Sequence record: PZ379076.1
DNA: 44,111 nt
Origin: a phage
Reading direction: 5' to 3' (one strand)
This document shows, piece after piece, positions 3,179 to 41,301 of the stretch. Both the position numbers and the translations under genes were made by a program. Below the pieces are notes generated by a model. It had not been told where the DNA came from. It did no database searches and was given only the letters and a program-made list of their open reading frames with translations. The stretch's first letter is position 1. Each line of letters begins with the position of its first letter.

Positions 3179-4439
3179 TATCACGGCAACGGAGCCGCAA
3201 GGCGCGTTTCTCGGTATGCATTGCAAGTTTCCGGCATTCGTAGCTGGCTTCGGTACGGGTAAATCCGAAGTTATGTGCAACTCTGCACTACTCGACAGCA
3301 TGGAAGGTGGTAGCGATTCTATCATCGCCATGTATGAGCCGACTTATGACCTGGTGCGCCTCATCCTTGCACCGCGTATGGAAGAAAAGCTCACCGACTG
3401 GGGTATCCGGTACAAATACAACAAGTCTGACAACATAATCTATACGTCTTCCGGACAATTTGGGGATTTTGTTCTGCGTACACTTGATAATCCAGCACGA
3501 ATCGTTGGCTACGAATCGTTTCGTGCGAAAATCGACGAGTTGGACACCCTTAACATGGAGCACGCCGAGCACGCGTGGAACAAAGTCATCGCCCGTAACC
3601 GCCAGTTGCCGCGGACATATAAACCTATTACACCGAAACCTGCTAATACCGTTTCCGTGTTCACTACCCCGGAAGGATTCCGTTTCGTACATGACCGCTG
3701 GGTAGTCAAAAAGAATCCAGGCTACGAGATGATTCAGGCGTCCACCCTGTCTAACCCGTTCCTGCCAGAAGATTATGTGCAGTCGTTACGCGACACATAC
3801 CCAGGTCAGTTGATTGACGCCTACATCAACGGCGAGTTCGTCAACCTGACGGCGGGGACTGTCTATTACGCCTATGACCGCAGGAAAAACAGCAGCCGCG
3901 AAACAATAAAACCAGGCGAGACTCTGTATATCGGGCAGGACTTTAACGTAGGCCACATGGCTAGTACAGTTTACGTGCAACGTGGCAAAGTCTGGCATGC
4001 AGTCGCCGAGTTGGTGGATATGTTCGATACGCCCGATGTGGTGAGAGCCGTAACAGAGCGCTGGAAAAGTAAGGGCCACTATATCGTTATGTACCCCGAC
4101 GCAAGCGGTAAAAACCGTAAAAGTAACAACGCCAGCACATCTGATATTGCCCAGTTACAGCAGGCCGGCTTCGAAGTGCGCGCTAAATCGACAAACCCAC
4201 CGGTTAAAGACCGCGTAGCGGCGATGAATAAGGCGCTTGAATCTGGTATGGTCATGATTAATGAACAGGCTTGCCCTGTTACCGCACGATGCCTGGAGCA
4301 ACAGGCTTACGACAAGAACGGCGAACCGGATAAATCAGGCGGTGTGGACCACCAGAATGATGGAACCACATACCCTATCGCGTATGAAATGCCGATTCGC
4401 AAACCAGTTATTAACGTCCCGGTGACTTTCGCACTTTAA
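3168..4439 (+). CDS. terminase large subunit
   Basis: 423 aa; Walker A-like GFGTGKS near the N-terminus; position between terS and portal. Confidence 0.85.
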   Translation: MNVNITATEPQGAFLGMHCKFPAFVAGFGTGKSEVMCNSALLDSMEGGSDSIIAMYEPTYDLVRLILAPRMEEKLTDWGIRYKYNKSDNIIYTSSGQFGDFVLRTLDNPARIVGYESFRAKIDELDTLNMEHAEHAWNKVIARNRQLPRTYKPITPKPANTVSVFTTPEGFRFVHDRWVVKKNPGYEMIQASTLSNPFLPEDYVQSLRDTYPGQLIDAYINGEFVNLTAGTVYYAYDRRKNSSRETIKPGETLYIGQDFNVGHMASTVYVQRGKVWHAVAELVDMFDTPDVVRAVTERWKSKGHYIVMYPDASGKNRKSNNASTSDIAQLQQAGFEVRAKSTNPPVKDRVAAMNKALESGMVMINEQACPVTARCLEQQAYDKNGEPDKSGGVDHQNDGTTYPIAYEMPIRKPVINVPVTFAL

Positions 4440-5943: not shown

Positions 5944-5966
5944 AGCCCCGAAAGGGGCTTTCTTAT
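5944..5966 (+). terminator. stem-loop / weak terminator after portal
   Basis: agcccc (5944-5949) gaaa ggggct (5954-5959) followed by TTCTTAT. Confidence 0.4.
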
Positions 5967-7510: not shown

Positions 7511-7537
7511 AAGGCCCCATTAAGGGGCCTTAGTTTT
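7511..7537. terminator. bidirectional rho-independent terminator
   Basis: Stem aaggcccc (7511-7518) / ggggcctt (7524-7531); T-run follows on plus strand and A-run precedes it (T-run on minus). Confidence 0.75.
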
Positions 7538-7740: not shown

Positions 7741-7767
7741 TTTTCACCTCCTGCTTAAGTTAACTGA

Positions 7768-7796
7768 ATAGTACCCTATTATATTGGGGTGTGCAA
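7768..7796 (-). promoter_or_regulatory. promoter, TTGCAC-N17-TACTAT family
   Basis: Minus strand reads TTGCAC (7796-7791), 17-nt spacer with AATAG-N4-CTATT palindrome, TACTAT (7773-7768). Confidence 0.5.
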
Positions 7797-7862
7797 ACTA
7801 TTTATTTAATTATTCCAGTTATTCCGCTCAATTGTAAATGTTGGAATAAACTATTCGAATAG

Positions 7863-7891
7863 TTGACTTTTCACTAAAAATATGATAAGCT
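7863..7891 (+). promoter_or_regulatory. promoter of conserved element copy 1
   Basis: TTGACT (7863-7868), 17-nt spacer, TAAGCT (7886-7891); same arrangement at 39678-39706. Confidence 0.45.
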
Positions 7892-8000
7892 CCACCTGAG
7901 CTTGTGAAGTATGAACAAGCGACCGCGGCGCGGGCAGGTAACGGAGCGGGACGTAAGTCCTGAGTGTAGTTACGCTGACGCGTTCGGAAGGGCCATACTC
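7886..8000 (+). repeat. conserved ~115-nt element, copy 1 (candidate structured RNA or leader)
   Basis: First 43 nt identical to 39701-39743, then matching with two offsetting 1-nt indels through ...TTCGGAAGGGCCATA(C/A)TCTATTG; GCTTGT/ACAAGC stem 7900-7920. Confidence 0.85.
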
Positions 8001-8070
8001 TATTGCTTGTGTAAAAAGTAACGGGTTTACTGAGATTACGCCGTTTCTATGTTTAAATGATAAGGACTAG

Positions 8071-8099
8071 CGCCCCGCTTTAAGGCGGGGCTTTACTTA
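8071..8099 (+). terminator. hairpin plus U-rich tract (terminator or attenuator) before Rz
   Basis: Stem gccccgc (8072-8078) / gcggggc (8085-8091), then TTTACTTA; Rz ATG at 8116. Confidence 0.4.
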
Positions 8100-8115
8100 T
8101 CGAGAAAGGAGAAAC

Positions 8116-10447: not shown

Positions 10448-10463
10448 GGTTAAGATATAATCG

Positions 10464-10491
10464 AGAGGGACTTCGGTCCCTCTTTTCATTT
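10464..10491 (+). terminator. rho-independent terminator after the capsid gene
   Basis: Stem agagggac (10464-10471) / gtccctct (10476-10483), loop ttcg, then TTTCATTT. Confidence 0.7.
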
Positions 10492-17279: not shown

Positions 17280-17321
17280 AACATAACTCCTGATTTGAGA
17301 TAACATCGTTGGTGTAAGTGA

Positions 17322-17350
17322 ATAGTACGCTATTATATCAGGGTGTGCAA
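17322..17350 (-). promoter_or_regulatory. promoter, TTGCAC-N17-TACTAT family (drives the minus-strand cassette)
   Basis: TTGCAC (17350-17345), 17-nt spacer with AATAG-N4-CTATT, TACTAT (17327-17322) on minus strand. Confidence 0.5.
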
Positions 17351-17457
17351 GTAGTATGTTAGAATAATTTTGCGCCTAGTGTCGCACACGAAAAGCGGGT
17401 GGTTCCCGTCTGGCGCATTTCCTTTAACCAGTAACCTCTTAACCAAAGGATTAAAGA

Positions 17458-17874
17458 ATGAAACTTTCTGATTTTTATTACGAAGCTGAAGCTGAAAAGG
17501 GTGCACGTATGCCGATACCATTAAAAGACGGTACCGATTCCGGGGAATGGCTTAATGTTGTTTCTCCTGAGGCAGACGTTGCCGTTAAGGCTATGCGCGC
17601 GTTCACCCTTGCATACCGGGCAGTGTTAGGGAAATTAAAACCGCTTCGTGATAAGTGCGAAGAGATGAAAGATTTCTCTGAATACAACCTGAAGATGGAA
17701 GACGCGGCGACGGACCTTAACCGTCAGTTAGCGGTTGAATTGGTTAACGGGTGGAGCCTTGACGACGAATTCAATAAAGAGAATCTGAACACACTCCTGA
17801 CGCAATATAAACGACTCGCGGAACTTGTTGTTGTGTTTCATAACGAACAACTGCACCAGCTACAGGAAAAGTAG
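17458..17874 (+). CDS. tail assembly chaperone (putative, G-like)
   Basis: 138 aa immediately upstream of the tape measure gene; AAAGGA SD. Confidence 0.5.
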   Translation: MKLSDFYYEAEAEKGARMPIPLKDGTDSGEWLNVVSPEADVAVKAMRAFTLAYRAVLGKLKPLRDKCEEMKDFSEYNLKMEDAATDLNRQLAVELVNGWSLDDEFNKENLNTLLTQYKRLAELVVVFHNEQLHQLQEK

Positions 17875-29734: not shown

Positions 29735-30019
29735 CTAACTATAATAGTTCGCTATTAGGGTGTCAACCTGTTTGAACGAACCAACTACAAAAACATTTGC
29801 ACCACGCTTACGCATCCGCTCGTGCTCTCGTAACTGGTGCGGGTCAGGCTTCGTGCTTTCGTCTTTCTTCACCTCGACGAACCAGACGATGCCGCCAGGG
29901 AGAATTACCAGCAGGTCGGGAGCGCCGGAACGCCCCTCGTAGGAAAGTTTACGAACGAGGCCCCCAAGGGCCTCAAATCGCTCTTTTGCGTATTTCTGGA
30001 TGCGGCCCTCTTTAGTCAT
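29735..30019 (-). CDS. VRR-NUC-like PD-(D/E)xK nuclease
   Basis: ATG 30019 inside track ORF 29735-30199; ...GAPDLLVILPGGIVWFVEVKKDES...QLREHERM fits the D...E-V-K nuclease core. Confidence 0.55.
   Translation of the reverse strand: MTKEGRIQKYAKERFEALGGLVRKLSYEGRSGAPDLLVILPGGIVWFVEVKKDESTKPDPHQLREHERMRKRGANVFVVGSFKQVDTLIANYYS
29738..29766 (-). promoter_or_regulatory. strong sigma70-type promoter, TTGACA-N17-TATAGT family
   Basis: Minus strand TTGACA (29766-29761), 17-nt spacer with AATAG-N4-CTATT, TATAGT (29743-29738). Confidence 0.65.
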
Positions 30020-33293: not shown

Positions 33294-33322
33294 ACTATAA
33301 TAGCTAACTATTCAGGTGTCAA
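33294..33322 (-). promoter_or_regulatory. strong sigma70-type promoter, TTGACA-N17-TATAGT family
   Basis: Minus strand TTGACA (33322-33317), 17-nt spacer with AATAG-N4-CTATT, TATAGT (33299-33294). Confidence 0.65.
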
Positions 33323-36099: not shown

Positions 36100-36128
36100 A
36101 CTATAATAGCGAACTATTCACATGTCAA
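36100..36128 (-). promoter_or_regulatory. strong sigma70-type promoter, TTGACA-N17-TATAGT family
   Basis: Minus strand TTGACA (36128-36123), 17-nt spacer with AATAG-N4-CTATT, TATAGT (36105-36100). Confidence 0.65.
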
Positions 36129-36736: not shown

Positions 36737-38985
36737 TCCAAATCCTCCTCGGTCACTGTCAGCATTTCATTCGGCTCGTATATTGTCTTCGGAATCTTGT
36801 TATCTGTTATCATGGTGTTCAGTCTGTAACGGCCTGGGATTATCTGATTGTTTTCGTCAGTACCCGGAACAAGATACCCAGCCTCAACCATTTTCTTAAT
36901 CTTCCCGCGTTCTATGGCTTCTTTGGAGTTAAACGCCTTTGCGTTGGGGTCAGACTGCGCGAGCTTATTCGCTGCGGATACCGTGATGCCCTCGTTGCCG
37001 TTGTAGGTCCCCTCCGCCAGTTCAAACGCCGCGAGTATCGTGGCCTCGGAACTGTTGACGGCGTTCTCTATGGTTTTACGTACATTTTGTTTACCTTCGT
37101 TAGTTAACCCTTCTTCCCTCTCTTTCTCCTCGTCGGTCTTGAATGGCTCGAAGCCCCACGGCATCAATACAAGCGCCTTGTGCGGCTCAGGCAGGTCGAG
37201 GTTTACTATTGTGCCGTATTCCTCTGTGCTACCGAGGAACTCAACCGCGCGGTACTCTTTCGGCGGCGGTGCTTCACGGAACTGTACAGACTCCAGTACC
37301 ATGCCAACCGTCTTCTGTTGCGGACCGTGCTTAAATTTAGAGTGGTATACGTTTATCTGACGGTCGGTAGCGCGTTCGATTGTCAGTTCCACGTCGACAC
37401 CCGCATACAATGCTCCACTGCCGCGGGCTTTCTTTCCGCCCTTCGGAGTATGGTGAACGACACCGACAGCGGCTTTAGTTGCATCGCGCACTTCTTTCAG
37501 GATGGCGATAACTTTACCCATACCGATTGCCGTTGATGAACTGTTCTCGTCGAACTTATCAATCGTCAGGGCCAGCGTCTGGTTAAGGGTGTCGAAGGCA
37601 ACCATGCCAATAGGTTCATCCCCTGCGGTTTCGCGCATCCTGCGGATTAGAGCTGGAATTTTTTTATCACCATGCGTAGCGAGTATTTCGCCCATATCGA
37701 TGACATGTACATAATCTTTACCTTCCTCGCCATATTTAGCCGCGAGTGCATCAATACGTGTTCGTGTAGCTGCACCACCCTCGCCGTCAATATAGAAATG
37801 GTGGCAACGTTGGGTGTCAGCCCCCGCAAACCGGTACCCGGCGGCGCTCAGGTGCATCATCCCCAGCGTATAGAATGATTTGTACGTGCCGGATTCCCCG
37901 ACAATATCCCAGATACAATCCGACGGCATGTACCCCTCAACGACGAAATCAGCCTTTACCGGTTCTGGTAACTCGTCCTCTTCTTCAAGGTCTTCCAGCG
38001 TGCAAGTTACAGGCTCCTCGTTCTCTGTGCGGTGCAGTTCTTCAATCTCTTCATCCGGTAAATCAGGCAGAGCCGCACGAATGCTGTTAATACTGATAGG
38101 TTGCTTGTCTACGTTAAGCTCGTCTGGCAGGCCGCACATACGCAGGGCCAAATGCTGTCGGCGGTTAAGCTCGGTGCAAGCGCCGTTGTTTGTATGCTGG
38201 CACACAAAGCGCACTTCTTTACCATCAAGCATGATGCTTGTGGAGCCTTTGCCTGTATGCAGATGTTCGTTAGGGCATGGGACTTCGTACCCGCGCCCGG
38301 AAGATAAAGCGTCAAGGCCAAGCTCGGCTTCGCAGAAATGCGCTATATCAGCATTAAGCCCATACTCATCGGCGGCAAGTGTCTTAACTTCACGTTTACT
38401 CAACCCCATCTCTTCGGCTTTCTTGATGTACCGCTCGGCACGGATAACACGCCCTTCTGTAACCGTTATCTTTGACTCTCTATGTGGCAGATAGATAAGG
38501 CGGTTGCCGTCTTCCGTGCAGTGGTCACGCAAGGCTTCATCTATTTCTAACTCTGCACAAATAGCCCGTTGGACCATCCACGCGTCGTTAGAGTTAAACG
38601 GCGTGCGAGCCGGAACCAGAACGCGGAAGGCGTAATCACCGTTTTTACACACATGCTGATGCGATGCCGTTGTATGCAGAATATTGAAGAACGGTGCGTT
38701 CTTGAATTTGCGGGTAAGGTCGCGGTACTGAGTACGGTTGAGATGGTCAAAATCGAACTTAACCACACTGTCTTCCAGGATAGCGTTTTTACGGCGACCC
38801 CCAACAGGCGCAATAGCTTTCTGCTTAATCTTGGCAGCGTCGTACTCTTCCTTAGACCACGACGGATCCACGGATAAACGCTTCGATGTATCGCAGACAT
38901 ACTCCACAAACTGCTCGAGCGGCATCTCACGCGCTACAGGGTTTTTATCGAATGTGTTGCGCAGCGTTGCAAAAACAATATTCAT
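36733..38985 (-). CDS. primase / replicative helicase (RecA-like ATPase domain)
   Basis: 750 aa; Walker A GESGTYKS in the C-terminal half, Cys/His-rich N-terminal half; largest ORF of the replication region. Confidence 0.55.
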   Translation of the reverse strand: MNIVFATLRNTFDKNPVAREMPLEQFVEYVCDTSKRLSVDPSWSKEEYDAAKIKQKAIAPVGGRRKNAILEDSVVKFDFDHLNRTQYRDLTRKFKNAPFFNILHTTASHQHVCKNGDYAFRVLVPARTPFNSNDAWMVQRAICAELEIDEALRDHCTEDGNRLIYLPHRESKITVTEGRVIRAERYIKKAEEMGLSKREVKTLAADEYGLNADIAHFCEAELGLDALSSGRGYEVPCPNEHLHTGKGSTSIMLDGKEVRFVCQHTNNGACTELNRRQHLALRMCGLPDELNVDKQPISINSIRAALPDLPDEEIEELHRTENEEPVTCTLEDLEEEDELPEPVKADFVVEGYMPSDCIWDIVGESGTYKSFYTLGMMHLSAAGYRFAGADTQRCHHFYIDGEGGAATRTRIDALAAKYGEEGKDYVHVIDMGEILATHGDKKIPALIRRMRETAGDEPIGMVAFDTLNQTLALTIDKFDENSSSTAIGMGKVIAILKEVRDATKAAVGVVHHTPKGGKKARGSGALYAGVDVELTIERATDRQINVYHSKFKHGPQQKTVGMVLESVQFREAPPPKEYRAVEFLGSTEEYGTIVNLDLPEPHKALVLMPWGFEPFKTDEEKEREEGLTNEGKQNVRKTIENAVNSSEATILAAFELAEGTYNGNEGITVSAANKLAQSDPNAKAFNSKEAIERGKIKKMVEAGYLVPGTDENNQIIPGRYRLNTMITDNKIPKTIYEPNEMLTVTEEDLE

Positions 38986-39180: not shown

Positions 39181-39391
39181 ACTTAACGCCCGCAATCCAC
39201 GCACGCTCCGAAGCGTAGAAACGACACTTACTTAAAGCCTCGATTGGCATCTTAATAATGCGTGTCGGTTCCAACAAATGATTAGGCTTACATATTTCCG
39301 CATAGAATCCGCTGTCAGTAATTTCCGACGCAAACTTAAACCAGTATTTAACTTTACAGTTTTCAAAGTAACAACCCATACGCCCAATCAT
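39179..39391 (-). CDS. hypothetical protein
   Basis: 70-aa ORF in track, ATGA-coupled to the upstream HTH gene. Confidence 0.5.
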   Translation of the reverse strand: MIGRMGCYFENCKVKYWFKFASEITDSGFYAEICKPNHLLEPTRIIKMPIEALSKCRFYASERAWIAGVK

Positions 39392-39570
39392 TTCACGTTC
39401 TCCTTAATCCATGCTTCAACTTTATTACGGTCAAATGTTCCTGGTAAACGGCGACCCATAACCTTAATACAGCAATCAGGGAATTTACCGCTGCGCAACC
39501 AGTTATTAATTGTTTGACGTGTCACCCCGATACGTTCAGCCACTTCATTCTGTGTCATGTAATGCTGCAT
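39388..39570 (-). CDS. AlpA / excisionase-like HTH DNA-binding protein
   Basis: ATG 39570 with AGGAGA SD inside track ORF 39388-39642; MTQNEVAERIGVTRQTINNWLRSGKFP ... VEAWI matches the AlpA-type pattern. Confidence 0.6.
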   Translation of the reverse strand: MQHYMTQNEVAERIGVTRQTINNWLRSGKFPDCCIKVMGRRLPGTFDRNKVEAWIKENVK

Positions 39571-39677
39571 TTTTATATCTCCTGTTTGTTTGGTGAAAAC
39601 GAGTATAGGATAGCGTGAATGTAAAAGCAACCAAAACACCACACAAAGTTACTAATATACAAAAGATGCTAATGGTA

Positions 39678-39706
39678 TTGACTTTTACTAAGAAATGTGC
39701 TAAGCT
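39678..39706 (+). promoter_or_regulatory. promoter of conserved element copy 2
   Basis: TTGACT (39678-39683), 17-nt spacer, TAAGCT (39701-39706). Confidence 0.45.
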
Positions 39707-39815
39707 CCACCTGAGCTTGTGAAGTATGAACAAGCGACCGCGGTGCGGCAGGAAACGGAGCGGTGCGTCAGCACTGAGTGTAGTGTCGCTGCCTGCATTC
39801 GGAAGGGCCATAATC
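39701..39815 (+). repeat. conserved ~115-nt element, copy 2
   Basis: Matches 7886-8000; stem-loop GGUGC-gtca-GCACU at 39762-39775 replaces GGGAC-gtaa-GUCCU of copy 1. Confidence 0.85.
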
Positions 39816-39907
39816 TATTGTAAATCCCGTCTAAATAACCCAAGTCACTAATAATTAAAAGTTTCTATAGTTGCCGTAAGCAAGGTAGAGAGTACTTCAC
39901 TCCGCTG

Positions 39908-39927
39908 GGGTGGGCTAAAGCCCACCC
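39908..39927 (+). other. GC-rich hairpin downstream of copy 2
   Basis: gggtgggc (39908-39915) taaa gcccaccc (39920-39927); weak T-rich tract ~13 nt later. Confidence 0.4.
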
Positions 39928-39986
39928 GCTGCGTTGCGTACTCTTTAAAGAAACAAAAGAATCACAACGGCAACGTAACTATTATC

Positions 39987-40015
39987 TTGCACACCCCAAC
40001 ATAATAGGATACTAT
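39987..40015 (+). promoter_or_regulatory. promoter, TTGCAC-N17-TACTAT family
   Basis: TTGCAC (39987-39992), 17-nt spacer with AATAG-N4-CTATT, TACTAT (40010-40015); acgagacagaggag leader before ATG. Confidence 0.5.
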
Positions 40016-40043
40016 TCACTTATCGGAACGAGACAGAGGAGTG

Positions 40044-40235
40044 ATGGTTATGTTTAAGAAGGGTCAGTTGGTTAAAACAAAACGCGGCGGACAGTACGTA
40101 ATAGTTACCCAGAATGAGGATGAATACAGTACCGCTGTAGACGTATGGGGTCTTGTACGAAAGAAACATGGTTACGCTTTCAGAGATAATTTAACACTCA
40201 TCGGCAACAATTTTAAATTCAAAGGGGTGAAGTGA
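40044..40235 (+). CDS. hypothetical protein
   Basis: ATG 40044 inside track ORF 40041-40235; AGAGGAG SD. Confidence 0.55.
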   Translation: MVMFKKGQLVKTKRGGQYVIVTQNEDEYSTAVDVWGLVRKKHGYAFRDNLTLIGNNFKFKGVK

Positions 40236-41242: not shown

Positions 41243-41271
41243 TTGCACACTAAGATAGAATAGGCTACTAT
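41243..41271 (+). promoter_or_regulatory. promoter, TTGCAC-N17-TACTAT family
   Basis: TTGCAC (41243-41248), 17-nt spacer with AATAG-N4-CTATT, TACTAT (41266-41271); aaacgagaggagaga leader. Confidence 0.5.
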
Positions 41272-41301
41272 TCATTTACACAAACGAGAGGAGAGACAGA
41301 G

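What the first reader, a model, noticed from the sequence alone, without database searches (positions are those of the whole stretch)
39678..39927. Second copy of the conserved element, upstream of a plus-strand small-gene operon
Copy 2 lies between the AlpA-like gene (minus strand, ends 39570) and the promoter at 39987-40015, and is followed by the hairpin 39908-39927. Both copies therefore sit at switch points between divergently transcribed blocks (copy 1 precedes the Rz/Rz1 spanins), which suggests a regulatory role rather than a chance duplication.
Basis: seen in the sequence. Interest (0 to 1): 0.6.

Follow-up and report, generated by a model that had tools for sequence, protein, structure and literature searches.

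The report
Promoter-linked structured leader RNA, two copies
The repeat is real: it is a promoter followed by a roughly 108-base folded non-coding RNA, found in hundreds of related E. coli and Salmonella phages at the head of their late genes and matching no catalogued RNA family, but what it does is still unknown.

Summary
The window is a Kagunavirus (Guernseyvirinae) phage genome. Copy 2 (39678-39820) matches copy 1 (7863-8005) at 87.6% identity over 145 columns (E 8e-44). The similarity stops at 39820, so the hairpin at 39907-39927 lies outside the shared element.

Homology begins exactly at a sigma-70-type promoter (TTGACT, 17 nt, TGnTAAGCT). It continues through a 5'-terminal hairpin (P1), a 65-nt irregular hairpin (P2) with a conserved internal loop, and a conserved tail (AAGGGCC-N5-CUAUUG).

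A covariance model finds exactly these two sites in the window and 99 sites in related phage and metagenome loci. Across those, 96% of pair cells are standard pairs and 15 of 29 pairs show changes on both sides. Jerseyviruses carry a divergent version at the copy-1 locus, with P1 replaced by a different hairpin.

The element matches no Rfam family, no E. coli genome and no HK022 put site. It is not a conserved reading frame.

Copy 1 is universal and leads the Rz/Rz1-scaffold-capsid operon. Copy 2 is an accessory cassette in a variable slot.

My best reading is a cis-acting leader RNA that controls elongation or termination into the late genes, like HK022 put. This is inferred, not shown. Rivals are an RNase III or stability element and a trans-acting small RNA.

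The parts
39678..39706 (+). Copy 2 promoter: -35 TTGACT (39678-39683), 17-nt spacer, extended -10 TGC TAAGCT (39698-39706). The predicted start is near G39713.
   Evidence: Read from the sequence. Similarity to copy 1 begins exactly at the -35. TTGACT and TGnTA(A/C)GCT are kept in all variants. The simple scanner does not list it because TAAGCT matches only 3 of 6 consensus positions. An independent annotator placed a promoter at the equivalent spot in phage phi135.
39715..39735 (+). P1, a 5'-terminal hairpin: GCUUGU / loop GAAGUAUGA / ACAAGC.
   Evidence: Present in the MFE folds of nearly all variants. In Jerseyvirus versions it is replaced by a different hairpin (ACGCU-UUC-AGCGU), giving three fully compensated pairs; helix 1 is 100% paired.
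39738..39802 (+). P2, a long irregular hairpin. It has a basal stem (CCG/CGG plus GGUGC/GCAUU), a middle stem (CAG.../...CUG), an internal loop (GGAG opposite UGAGUGUAG) and an apical stem GGUGC-GUCA-GCAC.
   Evidence: RNAalifold and covariance-model alignment. Pair counts show several pair types at key positions, for example C-G/U-A/A-U at columns 35-122 and five types at columns 61-97. Apical loops vary freely.
39803..39820 (+). Conserved tail AAGGGCC-AUAAU-CUAUUG. Its flanks are the most conserved stretch between Kagunavirus and Jerseyvirus versions; the middle 5 nt vary.
   Evidence: It was the only part detectable by BLAST between the K and J types. Variation is listed.
39821..39985 (+). 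Copy-2-specific 3' region, not shared with copy 1. It is AT-rich and contains GUUGCCGU (39870-39877), complementary to ACGGCAAC (39967-39974), flanking an extended hairpin (39886-39947; apical stem 39907-39927). There is no U-tract.
   Evidence: No terminator is called here.
7863..7891 (+). Copy 1 promoter: TTGACT (7863-7868), 17-nt spacer, TGA TAAGCT (7883-7891). The palindromes GAATAAACTATTC (7844-7856) and ACTATTCGAATAGT (7850-7863) abut the -35.
   Evidence: GAATAnnnTATTC sits 6 nt upstream of the -35 in Jerseyvirus versions too.
7898..8005 (+). Copy 1 RNA core (P1, P2, tail).
   Evidence: Covariance-model hit of 132 bits.
8006..8115 (+). Copy 1 3' leader. It contains a second GCUUGUG that can pair with the 3' arm of P1, a conserved AGAUUACGCCGU, and a hairpin/terminator at 8072-8091 (GCCCCGC-UUUAAG-GCGGGGC plus UUUACUU). 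The Rz ribosome-binding site and start codon (8116) follow.
   Evidence: Top-scoring + strand terminator. The hairpin is kept with compensatory changes in K and J types. The alternative pairing is the MFE of the full leader.
39388..39570 (-). Neighbouring 60-aa HTH_17 gene. This is context only and not part of the element.
   Evidence: Pfam HTH_17 at 1.6e-8 and phrog_66 at 3.6e-11. The gene is conserved in 447 records whether or not copy 2 is present.
39987..40015 (+). Separate promoter of the small-gene operon (TTGCAC, 17 nt, TACTAT), with the operator-like palindrome AATAGGATACTATT. This is context only.

Best explanation
Each copy is a small transcription module. It consists of a host-RNA-polymerase promoter of the extended -10 type and the first ~108 nt of its transcript.

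That transcript folds into a 5'-terminal hairpin (P1), a long irregular hairpin with a conserved internal loop (P2), and a conserved single-stranded tail. This much is shown, or follows directly from sequence and comparison.

Inferred mechanism: the RNA acts in cis on the transcript or elongation complex that carries it. It would let transcription and expression proceed through hairpins and terminators into the long downstream + strand operons.

For copy 1 that means the leader terminator at 8072-8091 and the Rz/Rz1, scaffold, capsid and tail genes, including the terminator after the capsid gene. For copy 2 it means the small-gene, lysis and packaging block.

This is the logic of the HK022 putL/putR leader RNAs. 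P1 probably also protects the 5' end from decay. Copy 2 is a diverged paralogue placed in a variable intergenic slot, so a second operon gets the same treatment.

Confidence is about 0.85 that this is a promoter-linked structured non-coding RNA. The 0.35 given below is for the cis-acting elongation/termination mechanism.
For: 1. Homology between the copies starts exactly at the -35 hexamer. The promoter hexamers and the TG of the extended -10 are kept in all variants. An independent promoter annotation exists at the same place in phi135.

2. RNA structure is well supported. 96% of pair cells are standard pairs, 15 of 29 pairs change on both sides, 0 of 500 shuffles reach this, and slid controls give 28-40% paired. 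Individual variants fold the same way. P1 is replaced by another hairpin in the J type.

3. It is not coding. Variants differ by single-base indels, the B type has an in-frame stop, and the D and J types lack the ATG.

4. Copy 1 sits at the same locus in about 180 K-type and 268 J-type genomes. It lies after a bidirectional terminator, and the only recognisable + strand promoter upstream of Rz is the element's own.

5. A good intrinsic terminator lies between the RNA core and Rz in the K type. Further terminators (5944-5959, 10463-10484) sit upstream of essential genes with no room for a promoter.

6. No antiterminator, sigma factor or RNA polymerase is annotated in the genome.

7. One phage carries a copy-2-type P2 core at the copy-1 locus, so the cores are interchangeable (e8/L010).

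8. The architecture parallels put: two similar promoter-proximal two-hairpin RNAs heading two operons (PMC9378689).
Against: 1. There is no expression data and no mapped 5' or 3' ends.

2. The -10 (TAAGCT) is weak and the simple promoter scan does not list it.

3. In J-type phages the pre-Rz hairpin has no U-tract, so it is not an obvious terminator.

4. In the window, copy 2 has no terminator after it, and the operon downstream has its own promoter.

5. Relatives carry unrelated promoter-plus-RNA cassettes at the copy-2 slot. In 590B and Ent2 a proper terminator follows, which looks more like a stand-alone RNA gene.

6. There is no sequence or structure similarity to put. The model finds nothing at the HK022 early-promoter (PL/PR) region, where put lies.

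7. The element (~108 nt) is larger than put (~70 nt).

8. The second GCUUGUG in the copy-1 leader suggests a switch (attenuator) rather than a constitutive antiterminator.
Confidence: 0.35

Rival explanations
1. RNA processing and stability element. P2 would be an RNase III-type processing hairpin, and P1 a 5' protective hairpin. Together they would set the half-life of the late mRNAs, like the RNase III sites in the leaders and intergenic regions of T7 mRNAs. There would be no effect on RNA polymerase.
For: P2 is a ~65-nt imperfect duplex of roughly two helical turns, with an internal loop that is conserved while the stems co-vary. P1 lies within about 2 nt of the predicted 5' end, and only its structure, not its sequence, is conserved. 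The similarity to T7 RNase III sites is from general knowledge and was not tested here.
Against: This does not explain the strongly conserved single-stranded tail. It also does not explain why the element is always tied to its own promoter, or why the promoter and P1 are kept nearly identical between the two diverged copies.
Confidence: 0.2
2. Stand-alone trans-acting small RNA, acting as a regulator or decoy. It would be released by termination or processing and would act on host or phage targets through the conserved tail or internal loop.
For: The element has its own promoter, a compact conserved fold and an exposed conserved tail. Copy 1 in K-type phages ends in a terminator about 195 nt downstream. 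The copy-2 slot holds alternative promoter-RNA-terminator cassettes in other phages. A second copy would raise dosage.
Against: There is no canonical terminator after copy 2 in the window or after J-type copy 1. No convincing complementary target for the tail was found in the phage genome beyond what an extreme-value tail would give. There is no similarity to any host sequence that would suggest mimicry.
Confidence: 0.2
3. Ligand- or protein-sensing attenuator (riboswitch-like). P2 plus the tail would be the sensor. The P1 versus P1' alternative pairing, or a tiny UUG leader reading frame over the second GCUUGUG, would decide whether the pre-Rz hairpin/terminator acts.
For: The segment after the tail repeats the 5' half of P1 in both K (GCUUGUG) and J (GCUUUCAG) leaders, although the two sequences differ from each other. 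The full K leader's MFE uses the alternative pairing. An SD-like GGAAGGG lies 11 nt before a conserved UUG.
Against: Copy 2 variants lack the repeated segment. No conserved antiterminator pairing with the hairpin was found, and only the hairpin itself is conserved in the 3' leader. One variant has UUA instead of UUG. No Rfam riboswitch matches.
Confidence: 0.12
4. DNA-level element. It could be a transcription-activated replication origin (a promoter plus a G-rich region that forms an R-loop) or a cluster of protein-binding sites.
For: Copy 2 lies at the minimum of cumulative GC skew, next to the replication genes. The transcript is G-rich.
Against: GC skew simply follows gene orientation here. 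Copy 2 is absent from most relatives, while copy 1 sits in the structural module. Hairpin covariation with free loops points to a folded single strand.
Confidence: 0.04
5. A neutral recombination scar, or a small protein gene. Some records annotate reading frames of 35-41 aa over it.
For: Hypothetical proteins are annotated over the element in several GenBank records.
Against: The reading frame is broken by single-base indels, by a stop in the B type and by loss of the start codon in the D and J types, while base pairing is preserved. Copy 1 is 95-100% conserved across E. coli and Salmonella phages.
Confidence: 0.03

Closest known systems
HK022 putL / putR polymerase-utilisation RNAs
   Same: Both are two similar, promoter-proximal, two-hairpin leader RNAs on one phage genome, each heading a long operon that contains terminators. 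Differences between the two copies are largely compensatory. No dedicated protein antiterminator is recognisable.
   Different: There is no sequence or structure homology: the model finds nothing at the HK022 early-promoter (PL/PR) region, where put lies. The element is ~108 nt versus ~70 nt, and here the promoter itself is part of the duplicated unit. The host phage is a virulent siphovirus, and the second copy is dispensable in relatives. Function is untested.
Lambdoid late-promoter module (PR', short 6S-type leader RNA, tR', acted on by Q) and P. aeruginosa AlpA / PalpB
   Same: Both have a promoter, then a leader of about 200 nt, then an intrinsic terminator just before lysis and structural genes. 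J-type versions repeat the -10 hexamer TACGCT 3 nt downstream, resembling a sigma-dependent pause element.
   Different: No Q-like protein is annotated. The adjacent HTH protein is 60 aa, whereas the AlpA antiterminator has functionally important residues up to position 142, with an N-terminal segment that forms a ring in the RNA exit channel. K-type copies lack the critical A in the repeated hexamer. Those systems do not need a folded leader RNA.
RNase III processing hairpins of T7-type phage mRNAs
   Same: Both are long imperfect hairpins with a conserved internal loop, located in a leader and repeated within one genome.
   Different: There is no sequence similarity known to me, and cleavage is untested. 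The conserved tail and the fixed link to a promoter are not features of those sites. The comparison rests on general knowledge.
int-alpA RNA motif (Rfam RF02996), present in the same genome at 17369-17433
   Same: It is another structured element of unknown function in the leader of a + strand late operon (the tail genes) of this phage.
   Different: It has a different fold and sequence. It is a catalogued family; the element studied here is not.

Membership tests
Any Rfam 15 family | Covariance-model score at or above the family's gathering threshold | tested here: not met
   The whole window at gathering thresholds gives only int-alpA, elsewhere. The region 39600-40050 at E up to 10 gives only two chance-level hits, at 19 and 14 bits against thresholds of 50 and 83. 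Neither falls on the P1 or basal P2 part of the core.
HK022 put RNA | Sequence and structure similarity to putL/putR (about 70 nt, two stems) | tested here: not met
   Model R1 with filters off on the HK022 genome gives no significant hit in the early-promoter (PL/PR) region. The only weak hit (16.9 bits) is a P1-like hairpin at the late promoter.
HK022 put RNA | Lies in the transcript just downstream of a host-polymerase promoter that heads a long operon with terminators | tested here: met
   The predicted promoter is immediately upstream, and operons with internal terminators lie downstream. The promoter is predicted, not mapped.
HK022 put RNA | Acts in cis without protein by binding the RNA polymerase beta' zinc-binding domain and suppresses termination | not testable with these tools
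   This needs in vitro transcription and rpoC mutants (PMC9378689).
Q / AlpA-type antitermination module | A cognate antiterminator protein (Q, or AlpA with its N-terminal ring-forming segment) | tested here: not met
   The neighbouring protein is 60 aa and HTH_17 only. No antiterminator is annotated in the near-identical genome. Important AlpA residues extend to position 142.
Q / AlpA-type antitermination module | A -10-like pause element in the initially transcribed region | tested here: inconclusive
   The J type has an exact second TACGCT 3 nt after the -10. The K type and copy 2 have TGAGCT, which lacks the key A.
Intrinsic-terminator-bounded small RNA gene | Promoter and Rho-independent terminator bracketing a short transcript | tested here: not met
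   For copy 2 in the window the hairpin at 39907-39927 has no T-run and is not called. The feature is met only for K-type copy 1.
Riboswitch / attenuator | A conserved sensor domain plus mutually exclusive terminator and antiterminator pairings | tested here: inconclusive
   An alternative P1/P1' pairing is predicted in copy-1 leaders. No conserved antiterminator was found, and copy 2 lacks the second segment.
Small protein-coding gene | A reading frame conserved across homologues | tested here: not met
   Frame-shifting indels, a stop in the B type, and no start codon in the D and J types.
RNase III processing site | An imperfect duplex of about 20 bp or more with an internal loop | tested here: met
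   P2 has about 23 pairs in three stacked stems. Cleavage itself cannot be tested here.

The most novel reading that the evidence does not exclude
The element is a second, evolutionarily independent class of RNA-only processive antiterminator (put-like). Virulent Guernseyvirinae would use it to drive host RNA polymerase through terminators into late genes without any phage protein.
Probability: 0.2. Interest if true: 0.75.

Novelty: new member of a known kind. Interest (0 to 1): 0.5.

Why it matters
Guernseyvirinae (Kagunavirus, Jerseyvirus) are among the most often isolated E. coli and Salmonella phages and are used in phage therapy and biocontrol. I found no study of how they time late transcription or of any RNA they encode.

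This element is their only recognisable promoter and leader for the spanin, scaffold, capsid and tail operon. Its fold is strongly supported by comparison, and it matches no catalogued RNA family.

If it modifies RNA polymerase as put does, it would be only the second phage RNA of that type that I know of, and a compact part for synthetic biology.

If it is a processing or stability signal, or a small RNA, it still gives a concrete handle on late-gene control. It also corrects the 'hypothetical protein' annotations laid over it in several of the GenBank records examined.

Tried and rejected
1. Rfam at gathering and permissive thresholds: no family. The alternative cassettes of 590B and Ent2 match none either.

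2. tRNA/tmRNA scan: none.

3. Host mimicry or prophage origin. There is no match in 5,426 complete E. coli genomes. The GTDB genome scan with the tail pattern gave 19 hits at about the chance rate. All score 24 bits or less with the model, except a 738-bp Jerseyvirus contaminant contig.

4. Coding potential: rejected.

5. Trans target search for the tail within the phage. The best non-self duplexes are antisense to coding regions and no better than the expected extreme tail.

6. Pseudoknot or extra covariation scan. Lineage-level co-changes swamp the signal, and no convincing extra helix emerged.

7. A weak P3 mini-hairpin in the tail appears in some folds but is not maintained.

8. CRISPR-repeat mimicry by the pre-Rz hairpin: rejected, because the stem sequence co-varies.

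9. A cognate regulator in the divergent gene next to copy 1: rejected. That slot holds unrelated genes in different phages, namely a 67-aa ORF, an endonuclease VII and a methyltransferase.

10. AlpA-type antiterminator identity for the HTH gene: rejected on size and domain content.

11. Literature searches for Kagunavirus or Jerseyvirus transcription or ncRNA found only in-silico promoter and terminator lists.

Full report
**What the window is**

The copy-2 element (39678-39830) is 100% identical to Escherichia phage vB_EcoM_SHAK7858. It is 82-94% identical to about 180 Kagunavirus and related genomes. The gene map of that near-identical genome is as follows.
- The + strand carries small genes, lysis genes, terminase, portal and head genes, then spanins, scaffold, capsid and tail genes.
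- There are two minus-strand blocks of nucleotide-metabolism and replication genes.
- No RNA polymerase, sigma factor or antiterminator is annotated.

**Checking the observation**

- The repeat finder reports one direct-repeat family of at least 40 nt in the window: 7863-7933 and 39678-39748, at 89%.
- blastn extends this to 39678-39820 against 7863-8005, at 87.6% over 145 columns, E 7.9e-44.
- Beyond 39820 the two loci are unrelated. The finding's end at 39927 therefore includes about 105 nt that are not part of the repeat.
- The hairpin GGGTGGGC-TAAA-GCCCACCC (39908-39927) is real and nested in a longer inverted repeat at 39886-39947. It has no T-run and the terminator scan does not call it.
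- The promoter at 39987-40015 is one of three close copies of a 32-nt promoter motif. It carries an operator-like palindrome, ATAATAGnnTACTATT, that occurs 11 times in the window against 0.27 expected.
- The 'AlpA-like' gene (39388-39570, minus strand) encodes a 60-aa HTH_17 / phrog_66 protein.

**Anatomy**

Similarity between the copies begins exactly at TTGACT. After a 17-nt spacer comes TGnTAAGCT, an extended -10 with the critical A2 and T6. The hexamers and the TG are kept in every variant recovered.

The simple promoter scan does not list the site, because TAAGCT matches only 3 of 6 consensus positions. The authors of phage phi135 independently annotated a promoter at the equivalent place.

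About 7 nt after the -10 the sequence folds as follows.
- **P1:** GCUUGU, a 9-nt loop, then ACAAGC, within about 2 nt of the predicted 5' end.
- **P2:** a 65-nt irregular hairpin. It has a basal stem, a middle stem, an internal loop (GGAG opposite UGAGUGUAG) and an apical 5-6-bp stem with a variable tetraloop.
- **Tail:** AAGGGCC, 5 variable nt, then CUAUUG.

**Comparative evidence**

Pattern scans of IMG/VR and metagenomes, plus GenBank phages, gave several lineages.
- **K type.** This is copy 1. It lies at the same locus upstream of Rz in Kagunaviruses and some Salmonella phages, and most copies are 95-100% identical to the window.
- **Copy-2 variants A (window), B, C and D.** Their P2 stems differ extensively.
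- **J type.** This sits at the copy-1 locus of about 268 Jerseyvirus records. P1 is a different hairpin (ACGCU-UUC-AGCGU) and the middle P2 stem is swapped (UCGCG/CGCGA). The tail and much of the internal loop are retained.

A covariance model (R1) gave these results.
- It finds exactly two sites in the window with filters off: 132 and 114 bits, with the next best at 10 bits.
- It finds 99 sites in 96 related loci.
- In 37 control loci that share only the tail pattern it finds nothing real. The one strong hit is a 738-bp Jerseyvirus contaminant contig in a Taishania assembly.

On the resulting alignment of 47 distinct sequences, the pair counts are strong.
- 96% of pair cells are standard pairs, against 85% in shuffles and 28-40% when partners are slid.
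- 15 of 29 pairs show changes on both sides.
- 0 of 500 shuffles reach the observed covariation score.
- Individual pairs show up to five pair types.

The caveat is that this alignment was fitted to the model. However, an independent MAFFT/RNAalifold run already gave 5 compensated pairs, and single-sequence folds agree.

**Not coding, and not known**

The 35-41-aa reading frames annotated over the element in some records are not conserved.
- Variants differ by single-base indels.
- The B type has an in-frame stop.
- The D and J types lack the start codon.

No Rfam family matches, and there is no tRNA or tmRNA. Nothing matches in 5,426 E. coli genomes. The GTDB scan gave only chance-level hits. 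Literature searches found only in-silico promoter and terminator lists for these phages.

**Context of copy 1**

Copy 1 follows the bidirectional terminator that ends the head-decoration gene (7511-7531). In K-type genomes it also follows a divergent accessory-gene slot, which holds a 67-aa ORF here, endonuclease VII in SETP13 and a methyltransferase in S102.

It is the only recognisable + strand promoter before Rz. Two palindromes, GAATAnnnTATTC and ACTATTCGAATAGT, abut the -35. The first keeps the same spacing in J-type phages.

Between the RNA core and Rz lies a hairpin, conserved with compensatory changes in both K and J types.
- In the K type it is followed by UUUACUU and is the best + strand terminator call in that third of the genome.
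- In the J type it has no U-tract.

The segment right after the tail repeats the 5' half of P1 in both K (GCUUGUG) and J (GCUUUCAG) leaders. The MFE of the full K leader uses the alternative pairing.

Other intrinsic terminators (5944-5959 and 10463-10484) precede essential genes with no room for a promoter.

**Context of copy 2**

The slot between the HTH gene and the small-gene operon is variable. Phage 590B and Salmonella phage Ent2 keep both flanks. In place of copy 2 they carry unrelated cassettes of a strong promoter and structured non-coding sequence, followed by a proper terminator. These cassettes match no Rfam family and the model does not hit them.

BLAST with copy 2 as the query finds 224 places in 181 records, so only a minority of genomes have two copies.

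Mosaics exist. One phage (L010) carries an A-type P2 core at the copy-1 locus, so the cores are interchangeable.

**Interpretation**

Shown:
- a duplicated and widely conserved unit that begins at a promoter-like sequence;
- a non-coding + strand sequence that maintains a specific secondary structure.

Inferred:
- it is transcribed from that promoter;
- the RNA is the functional part.

The mechanism is unknown. I favour a cis-acting leader that conditions elongation or termination into the late operons. My reasons are the fixed promoter-proximal position, the terminator in the K leader, the terminators inside the operons, the absence of any recognisable protein antiterminator, and the close parallel with HK022 putL/putR.

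Against this:
- J-type leaders lack a clear terminator;
- copy 2 is not followed by one;
- the copy-2 slot behaves like a stand-alone RNA-gene slot in relatives;
- there is no homology to put.

The one weak HK022 hit (16.9 bits) is a P1-like inverted repeat around the late promoter, with the whole of P2 deleted. I treat it as chance.

The neighbouring HTH protein cannot be an AlpA-type antiterminator. The P. aeruginosa protein has functionally important residues up to position 142 and uses an N-terminal segment to form a ring in the RNA exit channel, whereas this protein is a bare 60-aa helix-turn-helix.

The rivals cannot be excluded computationally. They are an RNase III or stability element, a trans-acting small RNA, an attenuator, and a DNA-level origin.

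**Verdict**

This is a real, conserved and previously uncatalogued structured RNA motif tied to its own promoter. Interest is moderate: a good candidate for experiments, with a modest chance of being a new RNA-only antiterminator.

Noticed in passing
window 17369-17433 (+): The only Rfam hit in the window is int-alpA RNA (RF02996, 36.6 bits against a threshold of 35.8). It lies in the leader of the tail-gene operon, just upstream of a tail assembly chaperone gene (17458-17874). It ends in a terminator-like stem followed by UUUCCUUU. A third + strand late operon therefore also starts with a structured leader.
   Followed up: partly
window 7767-7782, 17321-17336, 29741-29758, 33297-33312, 36103-36118, 40001-40016, 41257-41272 and others: The operator-like palindrome ATAATAGnnTACTATT overlaps the -10 of most strong promoters on both strands. 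It has 11 matches against 0.27 expected. It corresponds to the 'phage promoter' motif reported by PHIRE in published Kagunavirus genome papers.
   Followed up: partly
window 7844-7863: Two overlapping palindromes, GAATAAACTATTC and ACTATTCGAATAGT, abut the -35 of copy 1 but not of copy 2. GAATAnnnTATTC keeps the same 6-nt spacing in Jerseyvirus versions (L048, L049). This is a likely binding site for a dimeric regulator of the late promoter.
   Followed up: partly
L007 about 4390-4420; L013, L036, L041, L046; L011 (second copy): Downstream of B-type copy 2 there is a CTCA tetranucleotide repeat whose number varies (3 to 7 units). D- and A-type relatives have the complementary GTGA repeats. The repeats are complementary to the GGAGUGAG in the P2 internal loop of the B type.
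   Followed up: no
L065 (Salmonella phage Ent2) 971-1978: There is about 1 kb without annotated genes between the HTH gene and the small-gene operon. It includes a G+C-rich stretch of roughly 300 nt (about 1440-1750) that looks structured. It has no Rfam match and may be another uncatalogued phage RNA.
   Followed up: partly
L064 (Escherichia phage 590B) 590-840: An alternative cassette occupies the copy-2 slot. It has a consensus promoter (TTGACA...TATAAT), a hairpin-rich RNA of about 230 nt and a clean terminator (GGGCAGGCTTAAGGCCTGCCCTTT). It is unrelated in sequence to the element.
   Followed up: partly
L010 2220-2328; L024 1610-1718: Mosaic elements. L010 has the copy-1 flanks and promoter with a copy-2 (A-type) P2 core. 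L024 has a copy-2 locus with the copy-1-type promoter spacer. This is evidence of exchange between the two paralogues.
   Followed up: partly
public records OR594183.1, CP088689.1, NZ_JACVEL010000048.1 (L084): Three record-keeping problems. SHAK7858 is filed under Autographiviridae/Kayfunavirus and named vB_EcoM, although it is a Kagunavirus-type genome. A 44,086-bp E. coli 'plasmid' from blood (CP088689.1) matches the 308-nt copy-2 query at 99% and has the size of a Kagunavirus genome. A 738-bp contig of a Taishania pollutisoli assembly is a Jerseyvirus fragment.
   Followed up: no
L141 (HK022) 36892-36956: The model's only weak hit in HK022 (16.9 bits) falls on the late promoter PR' region, where an inverted repeat GTTGGG...CCCAAC brackets the -10. 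The -35 and spacer start (TTGACTTTTTGAATAAA) also loosely resemble the element's TTGACTTTTCACTAAAA. This is probably chance.
   Followed up: partly
window 39870-39877 and 39967-39974: GUUGCCGU and ACGGCAAC are perfectly complementary and bracket the 39886-39947 hairpin just upstream of the 39987 promoter. A UGCCGU...ACGGCA pair is also present in 590B and in B-type loci, and a related GCCGU motif recurs in copy-1 leaders.
   Followed up: no
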